Below, in pieces: positions 3,179 through 40,860 of a stretch of 41,396 nucleotides of DNA. Both the position numbers and the translations under genes were made by a program. Source of the stretch: a virus (lineage: Duplodnaviria; Caudoviricetes); IMG/VR virus record IMGVR_UViG_3300022177_000071, positions 1 to 41,396 of that record; one strand, given 5' to 3'. The notes beneath the pieces are model-generated. The model saw nothing but the letters and a program-made list of their open reading frames with translations. It was not told the DNA's origin and made no database searches. Positions within the stretch are counted from its first letter, which is position 1. Every line of letters begins with the position of its first letter.

Positions 3179-4255
3179 TTACTTAACCTGATTAGCTCTA
3201 TTGATCAGCAAGCTTGACAACTTATAAATATCATTTAAGCTTTCCAGACTATACTTAACATATTCCTTTATCTCATTCGGTATTATAATTGACTTGTTAT
3301 TATCTTTTATATTCAAACGACAGATCCAACGAGTTACCTTACCATCTACAATTACTCCGAAGTAGTTCACAGTATCTTTATAGGATAGCCTTGAAAGGTC
3401 AATAGTTTCCCTCAGGATCGATTTTATTATGTAGTAGGATTCAATCTCTTCATCAGTTGTATGAACCTTATTCAGAGCTTCAGTATCATCATCAGCAATT
3501 TCCTCATCGGGAACTACTTCCGGAATGGTATCTTCCTTTTCGTCACTCTTTAGAGCAGTCTGGATTTTCTCATTTACCAGGTCATTTATATATGCTGTAA
3601 GAGACCTTTTAAGTATGGGCTTATATCTATCGACTATATTCTGAGTTTTAACTCCATCATAAACACCACGGCCAATTATATATCTGGTAAAGTCATCAGT
3701 AGGGTTAGTAAACTCTTCTTTGAGGATCCCACGCATTATTCCCATATATTTTAGCTCAGCAGCTGAATCAATTATATGGTTTAGATCAAAATTGTCTTTA
3801 TGGAATTTTTTAAGCTCTGGAATTTGAGCATCTTTAAGATCTATCATATTGATTTCTAAGAAGGGTTTTTCATCCATCTTATTAGGTGCATCTAGATCAG
3901 TATAAAACCTATAGATAAGACCATTAGTAAGGATAGCAAATTTAGCTTTAGTTGTACCAAAGTATCTGAATAATTGCGAGTCATGTTTTGCAAGCTCTTC
4001 CTTGATAGATTTGCATTCTATAAGAATAACTGGCTCTTGATTCTTTAGGATAGCATAGTCTATTTTTTCACCTTTTTTAATCCCGACGTCAGCAGTATAC
4101 TCCGGAGTGAACTCAGCTGGATTGAATATGTCGTAACCAAGAATTTGAAACAAAGGCATGATGATAGAAGTTTTGGTGGCTTCCTCTGTTTGGATACCAC
4201 CCATTATTGATTCTGTCCTCTTAGCAAAGCTCCTGATTTGTTCTTCAAAATTCAT
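3179..4255 (-). CDS. Stand-alone type I restriction enzyme HsdR N-terminal domain protein (PD-(D/E)xK nuclease)
   Basis: EEATKTSIIMPLFQILGYD...PEY...GEKIDYAI...LIECK...QLFRYF...ILTNG motifs; no helicase, HsdM or HsdS. Confidence 0.85.
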   Translation of the reverse strand: MNFEEQIRSFAKRTESIMGGIQTEEATKTSIIMPLFQILGYDIFNPAEFTPEYTADVGIKKGEKIDYAILKNQEPVILIECKSIKEELAKHDSQLFRYFGTTKAKFAILTNGLIYRFYTDLDAPNKMDEKPFLEINMIDLKDAQIPELKKFHKDNFDLNHIIDSAAELKYMGIMRGILKEEFTNPTDDFTRYIIGRGVYDGVKTQNIVDRYKPILKRSLTAYINDLVNEKIQTALKSDEKEDTIPEVVPDEEIADDDTEALNKVHTTDEEIESYYIIKSILRETIDLSRLSYKDTVNYFGVIVDGKVTRWICRLNIKDNNKSIIIPNEIKEYVKYSLESLNDIYKLSSLLINRANQVK

Positions 4256-4462
4256 CTTGATTCCTCCTTAGTATATTTAGTTATTTTTACTACAGCTTAA
4301 CGGACTACCAAAACTGTCAATCTGTTGATGCTGACCAAAAACAGCTTCACGGCTGCTTGAATCTCTGAATCTGTTTAGAGTAGCAGTAAACAGCCTCATA
4401 GTTGTCGCAATCTCTTTAATATAACTGAGATGTCGGCTTAATTGGGTCCTCTGATATAAACC

Positions 4463-4500
4463 CAAAAAAGAAAGAGACTCTGTTCAACACAGAGTCTCTT
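4463..4500 (-). terminator. Intrinsic terminator
   Basis: 12-bp stem AAGAGACTCTGT/ACAGAGTCTCTT (4472-4483/4489-4500) followed on the minus strand by TCTTTTTT. Confidence 0.85.
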
Positions 4501-4558
4501 GGTAGTGTCACCCGTCGGTGACTTGTCATTATTGTAGTGGTGAATTACTCACCTTGTA
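4463..4558 (-). ncRNA. Putative small RNA of repeated hairpins downstream of the pemK-like gene (candidate RNA antitoxin, possibly the pemK RNA motif)
   Basis: Own promoter (4564-4592); two ACAA-6bp hairpin-ACUAC units (4534-4557, 4502-4526); intrinsic terminator. Confidence 0.7.
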
Positions 4559-4563
4559 CAATA

Positions 4564-4592
4564 ATAATACCCTGTGTTGAGTAAGAAGTCAA
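4564..4592 (-). promoter_or_regulatory. Sigma-A promoter for the small RNA
   Basis: TTGACT (4587-4592), 17 bp, TATTAT (4564-4569), directly after the pemK-like stop codon. Confidence 0.75.
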
Positions 4593-4595
4593 CAT

Positions 4596-5351
4596 CTATA
4601 GAAAATATTTTCTAGCCTGCGCACTTATTGTATCCATAGTCGAAGTAGACAAACTGACTCCATACAATGGCGATTTTGTTTTAGTAGGTTCCAGGATCCT
4701 CATTTTGCTAATTGTAGTTATTTGATTCAAAAGAGCGCAACTACCTGGTTTTAAGCTTTCTGATTTATCGATGCAGTCCTTGCAGTACTGTAGTTCAGCA
4801 TTAAGCTCGCGAGCTTCCTTTCTTATATTCTCCTTCTCAGTATCTTCAGCTGAAATAAATCTCTCCTGAAGTTCCTTAACACGATCCGTTATCGAGGCCA
4901 TCATAGTTTTTATTTTCAGATTGAGTGCATTATACATTTCGTTTCCTAAGTACAATTCATATTTATGTAAATCCAAGGGATCCACCCCGTCTTTTACTGA
5001 TGATAGGGGCATTACTGTGAGAACCGGTGAGGATTTGTCGTCATCTTTATTCAATACAACACAATAATGAGCACCACCGTGTTCGCTACCAACATTGAAT
5101 CCCAAGCTTACGTATACTATGGTGCCATAATTATAAACTGGAAGATATCTAGGACTAAATCCTTTTTCTCTATTTAGCATATTTCTATAGTCTTTGAGCC
5201 AATAAGTAAGATTAACGCAGCGCTTATAATTAGATTCATATGAAGGACTAGATTCGTCTAGTAATTGGTCCAGAAACTCATCTAGTTTTTTAATAACATC
5301 TTCTTTGAATTTTAAGAAATCTTCCCGATTGTCCTTTAGCTTATAATTCAT
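4596..5351 (-). CDS. PemK/MazF-fold endoribonuclease toxin-like protein
   Basis: YGTIVYVSLGFNVGSEHGGAHYCVVL, LTVMPLSS and NQITTISKMRI motifs; N-terminal extension and coiled-coil insertion. Confidence 0.85.
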   Translation of the reverse strand: MNYKLKDNREDFLKFKEDVIKKLDEFLDQLLDESSPSYESNYKRCVNLTYWLKDYRNMLNREKGFSPRYLPVYNYGTIVYVSLGFNVGSEHGGAHYCVVLNKDDDKSSPVLTVMPLSSVKDGVDPLDLHKYELYLGNEMYNALNLKIKTMMASITDRVKELQERFISAEDTEKENIRKEARELNAELQYCKDCIDKSESLKPGSCALLNQITTISKMRILEPTKTKSPLYGVSLSTSTMDTISAQARKYFL

Positions 5352-5367
5352 TTCGACCCTCCATTTT

Positions 5368-5817
5368 TCATTTCTTATACTTATAACTTAGCAACTTCAG
5401 CTGGCCTAGAAGCTCATTGGCAAATTGGATCTTATCCTCATCAGATAACTTATCTATATCGAAGCCACCAAAACCCATTATGACTTCCTGGGATAGGAGG
5501 AAGGATATTGCTTCCTCTGGGGTGGTGAACTCATGAATATTTTCAAAACGGGTATTACTCTTATCTTTCTTAATAGCAATATCATCATACCCAGCTAGAT
5601 TTAAGAGAATGTTTGTATTTATGTTATAGGCTTTGCTAATCATCTGAAGGGTCTCAATTGTCGGAACAATAGGCGAGCTCGAGCGAGGATCTTTTGCTTT
5701 TTCGAGAATTGACAAGTATGTATGACTAACACCAACCAAATTTGCAGCATCCCTTAATGAGAGTCCCATTTCAGAACGCTTTTCTTTTAATATAATCCCT
5801 AATTTCTGAAGATTCAT
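5368..5817 (-). CDS. CI/ImmR-like XRE-family prophage repressor
   Basis: N-terminal HTH (LSLRDAANLVGVSHTYLSILEK); divergent from cro-like gene; no S24 autoprotease domain, consistent with ImmA cleavage. Confidence 0.88.
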   Translation of the reverse strand: MNLQKLGIILKEKRSEMGLSLRDAANLVGVSHTYLSILEKAKDPRSSSPIVPTIETLQMISKAYNINTNILLNLAGYDDIAIKKDKSNTRFENIHEFTTPEEAISFLLSQEVIMGFGGFDIDKLSDEDKIQFANELLGQLKLLSYKYKK

Positions 5818-39107: not shown

Positions 39108-39728
39108 ATGTTAAGTAATTACTACATAAGCAAAGAAATATCATCAAGCAATATGTCACAGATTGTTGCTTCAATTTCAAGGTCATATGAAGTTGTTGAG
39201 AATATTAAGAGTGAATTCCCTATTTTGAGTGGGCCTATGCTTAGTAATTCAGTATCAATCCTGAAACAAACTTTGGTACAACATGAGTTGATTAGAATGA
39301 TTGAGAAGGGGTTTATTGAAGGCGTAAATTATAAAGTTTCCAATAATAAGCAAAGTAATTACCCATTCCTTGAGATTTATAATAGTTCATTCATTGTTAC
39401 TTTAAGTCATGTACAAGTAGAGTCTCAACTCCCTAGAAAAGCTATTTATCGCAATGAAAGAGCTGCTAATAATCAATTGTCTATTTTCTCTGAGGACAAT
39501 GCTGATCCTAGCAGATTATACTTTATACTTACTCATGGGCATAACGGAGTTAGACCTGATTTCATTTGTTTGGGATTACCCGATGAAAACAATGAGTTTT
39601 GGCGTGAACGAATTAATCTATTAGATAGAAAAATATTAGTACCTTCTAAACAAGAAGAGGAAGAATCTTTAGTAACCTTAACACAGTATGCAAAGGAAGT
39701 GTTAAAAATTGAAGAAAACAATAAATAA
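39108..39728 (+). CDS. Hypothetical protein, candidate toxin partner of downstream XRE-peptidase
   Basis: 206 aa, AT-rich, AAGGAGGG RBS, overlaps next gene. Confidence 0.7.
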   Translation: MLSNYYISKEISSSNMSQIVASISRSYEVVENIKSEFPILSGPMLSNSVSILKQTLVQHELIRMIEKGFIEGVNYKVSNNKQSNYPFLEIYNSSFIVTLSHVQVESQLPRKAIYRNERAANNQLSIFSEDNADPSRLYFILTHGHNGVRPDFICLGLPDENNEFWRERINLLDRKILVPSKQEEEESLVTLTQYAKEVLKIEENNK

Positions 39729-40860
39729 AAATAAGAGAACCCCTTTTGAAGATAAGTTAAAAGAAGCTAGAATTGCTAGAGGGTATACATTAACCGAATT
39801 AGCAGAAAAAATTGGTGTATCAAGGCAATCTGTTTCCAAGTATGAATCAGGGCTTAGCGTTCCATCAGCTCCAGTATTTAGTGAAATCGTAAAAGCATTG
39901 GAATTCCCTCTCGCATTTTTCTACACTGAAAACAAAATTTCTAGTAAGCAAGAAGGGCCTATTTATTTTAGGAGCCTAAAATCAGCAGATAGGAAAAATA
40001 GAGATGTTAGTGAAATTCGTGCTATATGGATGAATAGAGTTTACAGCTTTGTGGAACAGTATATAGGGTTTCCTAAATTAAACTTACCTGATTTTGATGA
40101 TTCATTAATCAAAGATGCATATTCTCCCGATGATATAAATAAGATAGCAAATATTTTAAGAGGTTATTGGGATATAGGGGATGGTCCGATTGATAATCTG
40201 ACATTTCTCTTAGAAAAAAATGGGATTATTGTGACGCAAATTCCTATAAACGATTCCAAGATTGATGCTTTTTCTAGGTGGATTGGAGATAAGCCAATAA
40301 TTTTTCTTGGTTCAGATAAAAACTGTGCAGTTAGATCTCGATTTGATTTAGCACATGAGTTGGGGCATGCAATATTGCATAGACATCATCACCCTTCAAC
40401 TTTACAAGATGCAAAAAAGCTAATATCTATCGAAAAAGAAGCGAATAGTTTTGCCTCAGCTTTCTTACTGCCAGAAAACAGTTTTAGTTCAGAGATCATG
40501 TCCACTAGTTTGGATCATTTTATAGTACTAAAGAAAAGATGGAAAGTTTCAATACAAGCCATGATATTCAGGTGTAACGAATTGGGTTATCTATCAGATG
40601 ACCAAACGCTGTATTTGCGGAAAAAAATTTCTAAACTAAATATGAGAAAAAAAGAACCTTTAGATGATGTGCTACTCCCAGAAAGACCCTTAGCTTTAAG
40701 ACAAGGGATAGAATTACTTTTGGATAAAGGAGTACTTTCAAAAAAAGATATCAGGGATACATTCAATTTTCCTGTATCTGAATTAGAAGAGTTGCTTACT
40801 CTAGATCATGGAACTCTGAGCGAAAACGCTCAAGTAATTAACTTAAAGATAATTAAGTAA
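39709..40860 (+). CDS. XRE HTH - ImmA/IrrE zinc peptidase fusion
   Basis: LKEARIARGYTLTELAEKIGVSRQSVSKYE; RSRFDLAHELGHAILH; EKEANSFASAFLLP. Confidence 0.92.
   Translation: MKKTINKNKRTPFEDKLKEARIARGYTLTELAEKIGVSRQSVSKYESGLSVPSAPVFSEIVKALEFPLAFFYTENKISSKQEGPIYFRSLKSADRKNRDVSEIRAIWMNRVYSFVEQYIGFPKLNLPDFDDSLIKDAYSPDDINKIANILRGYWDIGDGPIDNLTFLLEKNGIIVTQIPINDSKIDAFSRWIGDKPIIFLGSDKNCAVRSRFDLAHELGHAILHRHHHPSTLQDAKKLISIEKEANSFASAFLLPENSFSSEIMSTSLDHFIVLKKRWKVSIQAMIFRCNELGYLSDDQTLYLRKKISKLNMRKKEPLDDVLLPERPLALRQGIELLLDKGVLSKKDIRDTFNFPVSELEELLTLDHGTLSENAQVINLKIIK

What the first reader, a model, noticed from the sequence alone, without database searches (positions are those of the whole stretch)
4463..5351. 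PemK/MazF-fold toxin paired with a repeat-hairpin small RNA instead of a protein antitoxin
Seen: the 251-aa PemK-like gene has no small antitoxin ORF; its upstream neighbour is the phage repressor. Directly after its stop codon is a near-consensus promoter (TTGACT-17-TATTAT) driving a ~95-nt RNA: ACAA-GGUGAG(UAA)UUCACC-ACUAC, linker, ACAA-GUCACC(GACG)GGUGAC-ACUAC, then a 12-bp terminator. The flanks are identical while the stems differ in sequence but both pair, which points to structural repeats. Known: type III ToxN toxins share the MazF/PemK fold and are neutralised by repeated RNAs they process, but those arrays lie upstream and form pseudoknots; a pemK-associated RNA motif of unknown function has been described in Bacillota. 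Inference: an RNA-antitoxin system with a downstream, independently transcribed antitoxin, probably acting in abortive infection or prophage maintenance. The unpaired UAC/ACA linkers are candidate cleavage sites.
Basis: partly seen in the sequence, partly recalled or inferred. Interest (0 to 1): 0.85.

Follow-up and report, generated by a model that had tools for sequence, protein, structure and literature searches.

The report
Sma antiphage toxin's hidden RNA partner
This prophage gene encodes a MazF-fold protein related to the likely gene of Sma, a published 'single-protein' anti-phage system, and it and nearly all its relatives are followed by a predicted ~95-base two-hairpin RNA with its own promoter, which likely acts as the toxin's overlooked RNA antidote.

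Summary
Observation confirmed and greatly extended. The 251-aa protein is a MazF core with N-terminal helices and a coiled-coil insert. [quoted passage not shown] Downstream of 90 of 97 non-redundant homologues lies a promoter plus terminator defining a ~95-nt RNA (control 1 of 457 other ORFs); the SaPIpT1028 gene has it too. The RNA consists of units (ACA-like 5' end, covarying stem, A-rich tail); 50 of 90 have two or more. No protein antitoxin neighbours the family. In a sister prophage gene and RNA are missing together, and RNAs persist beside lost or broken toxins. It is not Rfam pemK, not pseudoknotted, and not a ToxIN/CptIN/TenpIN member. Best reading (0.7): an RNA antitoxin that binds the toxin, probably cut 5' of ACA as MazF enzymes cut. 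Not shown: expression, toxicity, binding. Against: cloned sma is viable in RN4220 (RNA content of the clone unknown), the catalytic Arg is His, and a model of the main clade scores the window's RNA only weakly. No description found in ten literature searches.

The parts
4596..5351 (-). Sma-family MazF-fold protein, 251 aa: two N-terminal helices (6-62), MazF core (77-136 and 204-250), coiled-coil insert (138-199)
   Evidence: (phrog_1412, E 3.9e-50)
5358..5362 (-). Ribosome-binding site GGAGG; gene starts 16 nt after the repressor stop, so likely co-transcribed with it in the lysogen
   Evidence: sequence; co-transcription is inference
4564..4592 (-). Predicted sigma-A promoter of the RNA (-35 4592-4587, -10 4569-4564); predicted +1 at 4557, the first A of unit 1
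   Evidence: same position in 90 of 97 homologues
4534..4557 (-). Unit 1: ACAA, 5-pair stem, 5-nt loop, ACUAC
4527..4533 (-). A-rich linker ending in G; predicted cut between 4527 and 4526 (G|ACA)
   Evidence: junction conserved as G|AC[AGU] in 42 of 50 multi-unit RNAs; cleavage is inference
4502..4526 (-). Unit 2: ACAA, 6-pair stem, 4-nt loop, ACUAC
4463..4500 (-). Intrinsic terminator (12-pair stem 4500-4472 and U tract)
4528..4565 (-). P1-like helix, arms 4565-4557 and 4536-4528: pairs the -10/discriminator sequence with the RNA body, so it can form only in a read-through toxin mRNA
   Evidence: family-wide covarying counterpart
4385..5398 (.). Extent of the mobile cassette (gene plus RNA): replaced by 63 other bases in a sister prophage contig
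   Evidence: run X9, one contig
5368..5817 (-). Prophage CI-like repressor (context, not part of the system)

Best explanation
The gene encodes a MazF-fold protein of the likely Sma antiphage family, and the predicted two-hairpin RNA behind it likely binds and neutralises this presumed RNase as a type III-like antitoxin. Shown by sequence and calls: fold, family, conserved promoter-RNA-terminator, covarying stems, no protein antitoxin, joint gain and loss. Inferred: the toxin is read from the repressor promoter in the lysogen; the RNA's own promoter makes antitoxin in excess; each unit offers an ACA 5' end like a MazF product and a stem whose shape, not sequence, is read; the toxin probably cuts the G|ACA junction into ~28-31-nt monomers that stay bound, one per active site of a MazF-type dimer; the extra helices supply the RNA-binding surface. 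When an incoming phage stops host transcription or degrades the RNA, the toxin would be freed and abort the infection; loss of the prophage would do the same. The P1 helix would mask the units in the toxin's own mRNA.
For: Promoter (>=10/12) plus terminator behind 90 of 97 homologues below 85% identity, against 1 of 457 other ORFs; median length 95 nt. Two or more units in 50 of 90 RNAs against 0.5% in shuffles; period 28 nt in 38 of 50; G|AC[AGU] junction in 42 of 50; 25 of 35 single-unit RNAs still carry the junction after the stem. Stems 98% and 100% paired with two-sided changes in 7 of 8 pairs, slid controls 32-46%; G-U 67 against A-C 13, so the coding strand is the folded one. No MazE/PemI family among 99 upstream ORFs, no recurring small neighbour. 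Gene and RNA absent together in one sister contig and present together in other flanks. In 151 genomes all 5 intact genes have a promoter-hairpin-terminator cassette, while 4 of 7 RNA hits lie beside a broken or absent toxin: the asymmetry expected of an antitoxin. MazF enzymes cut at ACA or U^ACAU (PMC5408214, passages). The SaPIpT1028 homologue passes the same strict test and its RNA also starts ACAA at the seventh base after the -10 box.
Against: No expression, toxicity or binding data. The sma gene was cloned on a plasmid in RN4220 and acted on phage infection (PMC13660305, passage), so that clone was viable; whether it held the RNA, or was covered by the strain's own FS_Sma locus, I could not see. 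The MazF catalytic Arg column holds His here (H95; catalytic role recalled), so RNase activity is unproven. ACA and GACA are not depleted in the toxin ORFs (z -0.3, -0.2); only AGAC is (z -3.6, 1 of 7 motifs tried). A model of the main clade aligns the window's RNA in register but at 15.6 bits, E 0.79, second-ranked. 40 of 90 RNAs have fewer than two units, and some clades lack ACA (L247, L250). Among 29 further, more distant loci only 15 pass the strict rule (22 a relaxed rule without control). Covariation counts ignore relatedness.
Confidence: 0.7

Rival explanations
1. The protein is self-inhibited (for example by its N-terminal helices or coiled coil) and switched on by a phage factor; the RNA binds it as a cofactor, sensor or preferred substrate needed for defence, not as an antidote.
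For: Sma was described as single-protein and its gene could be cloned. PHROGs labels the family 'antitoxin mazE-like'. The added helices are well folded and carry invariant W51 and E62.
Against: RNAs survive loss of the toxin but intact toxins were not seen without an RNA cassette; a strong separate promoter fits excess antitoxin; the PHROG label is an automatic name for a protein with a MazF fold.
Confidence: 0.15
2. The promoter-hairpin-terminator is a cis element of the prophage immunity region (insulator or attenuator for the downstream integrase) and only shares a cargo slot with the gene.
For: 53 of 86 downstream ORFs are integrases or recombinases; orphan copies lie before integrases (L229).
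Against: In the window the next gene is a nuclease; in SaPIpT1028 the integrase is upstream; the element also follows the gene on plasmids; a sister prophage lacks it together with the gene; 1 of 457 other ORFs has it.
Confidence: 0.07
3. The RNA is a type I (antisense) antitoxin or otherwise controls toxin translation or mRNA stability, P1 being the real switch.
For: P1 covaries (90.4% paired, 5 of 8 pairs with two-sided changes; >=8 pairs in 65 of 90 against 11 of 90 for the spacer control) and can form only in read-through mRNA.
Against: Longest perfect complement between RNA and own mRNA averages 7.8 nt, equal to the cross-locus control; the RNA lies on the same strand as the gene.
Confidence: 0.05
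4. The adjacent repressor (or another protein) is a type II antitoxin.
For: 27 of 99 upstream ORFs are HTH/S24 repressors.
Against: 72 of 99 are not; the repressor stays when the cassette is absent, and the cassette recombines within the repressor gene.
Confidence: 0.03

Closest known systems
[quoted passage not shown]
   Same: PT1028 ORF005 aligns to this family over 209 columns, probability 99.2, E 1.9e-19, 26% identity; same layout with a variable central insert and the GxHx motif; expressed in lysogeny, acts against non-helper phages.
   Different: Published as one gene. Here the window's gene and ORF005 itself carry a downstream RNA cassette, so the system is likely two-part. That ORF005 is Sma is inferred (only PemK-domain CDS among 19 of 22 scanned).
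Type III TA families ToxIN, CptIN, TenpIN, AbiQ (PMC5086642, passages)
   Same: MazF/Kid-related fold; short repeated RNA units, often with a fractional last copy; predicted cut in an A-rich linker.
   Different: There the repeats lie upstream in one operon, separated by a terminator, and fold as pseudoknots. Here the RNA is downstream with its own promoter, has simple hairpins with no pseudoknot signal, and the toxin is of the MazF/EndoA lineage.
AbiF with RCd22/AbiFr (10.1101/2025.04.15.648962, abstract and section 6; PMC12737573, passages)
   Same: Prophage-borne, ~100-nt RNA with two copies of a motif and a terminator that neutralises a toxin by direct binding.
   Different: HEPN/Abi_2 toxin, RNA upstream acting also as attenuator, Rfam abiF motif not matched here.
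Type II MazEF / PemIK (EndoA, S. aureus MazF, Kid)
   Same: Core fold: Z 13.7, rmsd 2.1 over 111 residues to 4mzm; conserved E90 and S117.
   Different: No protein antitoxin; 70-residue N-terminal extension and coiled-coil insert; His in place of the catalytic Arg.
Rfam RF02913 pemK RNA
   Same: Bacillota element named after PemK genes.
   Different: 61-nt three-way junction of other sequence, typed cis-regulatory, upstream of a short canonical pemK in L166; no match in the window even at E 10.

Membership tests
Sma (FS_Sma) | Full-length homology to SaPIpT1028 Sma | tested here: met
   hhalign 99.2%, 209 columns to PT1028 ORF005; identification of ORF005 as Sma is inferred
Sma (FS_Sma) | MazF-like core with variable central region, no protein antitoxin gene | tested here: met
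   description in PMC13660305
Sma (FS_Sma) | Match to the DefenseFinder FS_Sma profile | not testable with these tools
Sma (FS_Sma) | Antiphage activity | not testable with these tools
   needs phage challenge
Type III TA, ToxIN/CptIN/TenpIN | Repeat array upstream of the toxin, one promoter, terminator between | tested here: not met
   RNA is downstream with its own promoter
Type III TA, ToxIN/CptIN/TenpIN | Pseudoknotted antitoxin monomers | tested here: not met
   loop-tail pairing 2.94 against 2.90 permuted, p 0.28, 96 units; only Watson-Crick/G-U pairing tested
Type III TA, ToxIN/CptIN/TenpIN | Toxin of the ToxN, CptN or TenpN family | tested here: inconclusive
   Pfam gives only PemK_toxin; top structural rows are MazF/Kid, ToxN not listed, which does not exclude it
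Type III TA in the wide sense (RNA binds and inhibits protein toxin) | Repeated structured RNA units stably linked to the toxin gene | tested here: met
Type III TA in the wide sense (RNA binds and inhibits protein toxin) | Toxicity, direct binding, rescue, processing | not testable with these tools
   bench work
Type II MazEF/PemIK | Adjacent protein antitoxin gene | tested here: not met
   0 of 99 upstream ORFs; no recurring small ORF in 109 loci
Rfam pemK RF02913 | Score above 34.8 bits | tested here: not met
   positive control rang elsewhere in 4 of 5 host genomes
Type I TA | Extended complementarity of RNA to toxin mRNA | tested here: not met

The most novel reading that the evidence does not exclude
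Sma and its more than 1,000 relatives (50%-identity clusters at E 1e-10) form an unrecognised class of RNA-antitoxin systems that arose within the MazF lineage apart from ToxN: inverted gene order, separate promoter, hairpin product mimics, a -10-box helix that hides the antidote in the toxin's own mRNA, and orphan RNAs that give phages immunity to a rival's toxin.
Probability: 0.55. Interest if true: 0.88.

Novelty: new variant of a known kind. Interest (0 to 1): 0.8.

Why it matters
It would explain how a published 'single-protein' defence RNase is kept silent and triggered, and it predicts that clones ending at the stop codon lose the antidote (the -35 box overlaps or abuts the stop). It adds a large family of RNA-neutralised toxins, found in gut, staphylococcal and streptococcal prophages, a SaPI and plasmids, that searches requiring upstream repeats could not find. 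It shows how a MazF-type enzyme could swap a protein antitoxin for an RNA one, and it is directly testable with cultured S. aureus phages and SaPIpT1028.

Tried and rejected
Rfam: no gathering-level match to the RNA in the window or in 44 homologous or orphan loci; weak E-value hits were terminators or chance. Rfam pemK rejected. PADLOC and NCBIfam gave nothing for the protein; single-sequence PDB search nothing. No RNA holder was listed among public runs, which says nothing on expression. Pseudoknot, antisense and motif-avoidance tests were negative apart from AGAC. The main-clade RNA model does not detect the window's RNA significantly. The metagenome scan with P0002 returned only the window's own stretch and two S. 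aureus-type loci, so there is no covariation from near relatives of the window. The tree is the quick version and was used only to see that the window is outside the main clade. Ten paper searches showed no report of an RNA behind Sma/PemK-like phage genes; the library lacks most subscription papers, the Sma paper and the Weinberg 2017 supplement. Earlier scan findings held nothing on this system.

Full report
Setting. The window is a 92% complete provirus record. The finding lies in the immunity region: integrase 1200-1, ImmA-like gene, cargo genes, an HsdR_N nuclease 4255-3179, the gene in question 5351-4596, the repressor 5817-5368 and a divergent cro-like gene.

Observation. The two units share both flanks, 2 matches against 0.08 expected; the predicted RNA folds at z -5.4. 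The seventh base after the -10 box is the first A of unit 1, so the transcript would begin with the same end that a cut before unit 2 would make.

Protein. AlphaFold2 on 43 sequences gave mean pLDDT 91.5: two N-terminal helices, a MazF core and a coiled-coil hairpin at 138-199. Best matches are MazF and Kid (Foldseek E 4e-6; Z 13.7, rmsd 2.1, 111 residues). The profile aligns EHGGAHY to EQGGVRP of Bacillus EndoA, putting His95 at the Arg and Ser117 at the Thr that I recall as catalytic. The family is large: 1,047 clusters at 50% identity with E up to 1e-10, 110 cultured phage records of Staphylococcus and Streptococcus and 17 plasmids.

Identity. Citing papers describe Sma/FS_Sma as a one-gene MazF-like antiphage system of SaPIpT1028, expressed in lysogeny, whose homologues differ in the length of a central region (passages of PMC12829572, PMC13660305 with its supplement, PMC12409344, PMC13689060, PMC12948488). 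The original paper is not held. PT1028 ORF005 is the only PemK-domain gene among 19 of 22 CDSs scanned and aligns to the family at probability 99.2 over 209 columns. I infer that it is Sma and that the window's gene is a distant member (24% identity).

The RNA across the family. Of 161 loci, 155 had a full gene and enough downstream DNA; they collapse to 97 below 85% identity. A promoter of at least 10/12 plus a terminator 55-120 bases on follows 90 of 97, against 1 of 457 other ORFs and 0 of 148 with free downstream space; median length 95 nt. The seven misses show hairpins and a terminator by eye, and five of them match the RNA model at 20-81 bits. Of 29 further, more distant loci 15 pass the strict rule, PT1028 ORF005 among them, and 22 a relaxed, uncontrolled one. 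The unit is A-Y-D, one or two bases, a G-C-closed stem of free sequence and loop length, and an A-rich tail: A-Y-D at -5 to -3 in 116 of 144 hairpins. Fifty of 90 RNAs have two or more units (0.5% of shuffles), 35 one, 5 none; period 28 in 38 of 50, 31 in the window; junction G|AC[AGU] in 42 of 50. On 50 hand-picked two-unit RNAs the stems are 98% and 100% paired with two-sided changes in 7 of 8 pairs; slid controls give 32-46% (relatedness not corrected). The window's ACAA-G register recurs in S. aureus phage B236 and in PT1028, and its ACUAC tail in L175 and L197. The model built from the main clade found 26 RNAs behind the gene or beside it in 43 other loci but gives the window only 15.6 bits, E 0.79: the window is tied to the family by position and architecture, not by a significant score.

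An unexplained helix. The -10 box and discriminator pair with a stretch of the RNA body: at least 8 pairs in 65 of 90, against 11 of 90 for the spacer and 23% across loci; 90.4% paired, 5 of 8 pairs with two-sided changes. In the window the partner encloses unit 1 only, and the family test scored it 5. As the 5' arm lies before the predicted start, the helix can form only in read-through toxin mRNA, where it would cover a unit's tail. Its role is inference.

No protein antitoxin. Of 108 loci 99 had an upstream ORF by my rule: 27 repressors, 9 ImmA-like, one HicB-like, none MazE/PemI; 53 of 86 downstream ORFs are integrases. Clustering ORFs of 30 aa or more within 1.2 kb gave only repressors, recombinases, ImmA, antisense shadows and clusters of at most 8 loci.

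Gain and loss. One contig of a sister prophage joins 4384 to 5399 over 63 other bases, and runs X3 and X5 carry 4390-5529 at about 96% identity between other flanks. In 151 sampled genomes the RNA model hit 7: three beside intact genes, one beside a broken gene, three (one weak) with no gene; the two other intact genes have divergent cassettes. Of 26 exact pattern hits in viral contigs 19 lie behind the gene (two broken or partial beyond contig ends) and 7, one lineage, are a decayed copy without -10 box or gene. Genomes may be incomplete.

Mechanism. MazF enzymes cut at ACA or U^ACAU, and type III toxins cut their repeat RNAs into monomers that block the active site (passages of PMC5408214 and PMC5086642). 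A prophage RNA with two motifs neutralises AbiF by binding (10.1101/2025.04.15.648962, abstract and section 6). By analogy the units here are likely product mimics. Tests for pseudoknots and antisense pairing were negative, and ACA is not avoided in the toxin genes. The strongest doubt is the viable sma clone in RN4220.

Novelty. The protein family and probably its antiphage role are known; the RNA is not in Rfam 15 and ten searches found no description. Weinberg 2017 has no pemK passage in the main text and its supplement could not be read; supplements and subscription papers that I could not see may bear on this. Verdict: new variant of a known kind, interest 0.8.

Noticed in passing
window 39108-39728 and 39709-40860 (+): RosmerTA pair at the far end of the prophage: PADLOC RmrT E 4e-36 and RmrA E 5e-150.
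   Followed up: no
window 3179-4255 (-): Stand-alone HsdR_N / PD-(D/E)xK nuclease, phrog_4225, in the same cargo slot; kept in the sister contig that lacks the toxin cassette.
   Followed up: partly
L130:2836-2937: A second RNA copy (58.8 bits) lies directly upstream of the toxin gene as well as the usual downstream one.
   Followed up: partly
L229, L231, L232 (around 1501-1610): Orphan RNAs with intact promoter and no toxin; by eye the L229 RNA equals that of L026. Possible immunity decoys or remnants.
   Followed up: partly
L231:290-400 and L025:1635-1750: Abi_2 genes with a similar upstream promoter-hairpin-terminator element, abiF-like by position but below Rfam gathering.
   Followed up: no
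L238:1489-2200 and L250:1456-2250: Short relatives without the coiled coil, with Arg kept in the GGxHP/GGNRP motif in L238 and L245, also have downstream repeat RNAs of other sequence, so the RNA link may predate the insert.
   Followed up: partly
phrog_1412 annotations in RefSeq phages: The family is labelled 'antitoxin mazE-like' although the fold is MazF.
   Followed up: yes
L252:8453-8991: PT1028 also carries a TscA/TscT pair.
   Followed up: no
L161-L166: Rfam pemK hits lie mostly in conjugative-element-like regions before excisionase or HTH genes; only L166 of five precedes a pemK gene.
   Followed up: no
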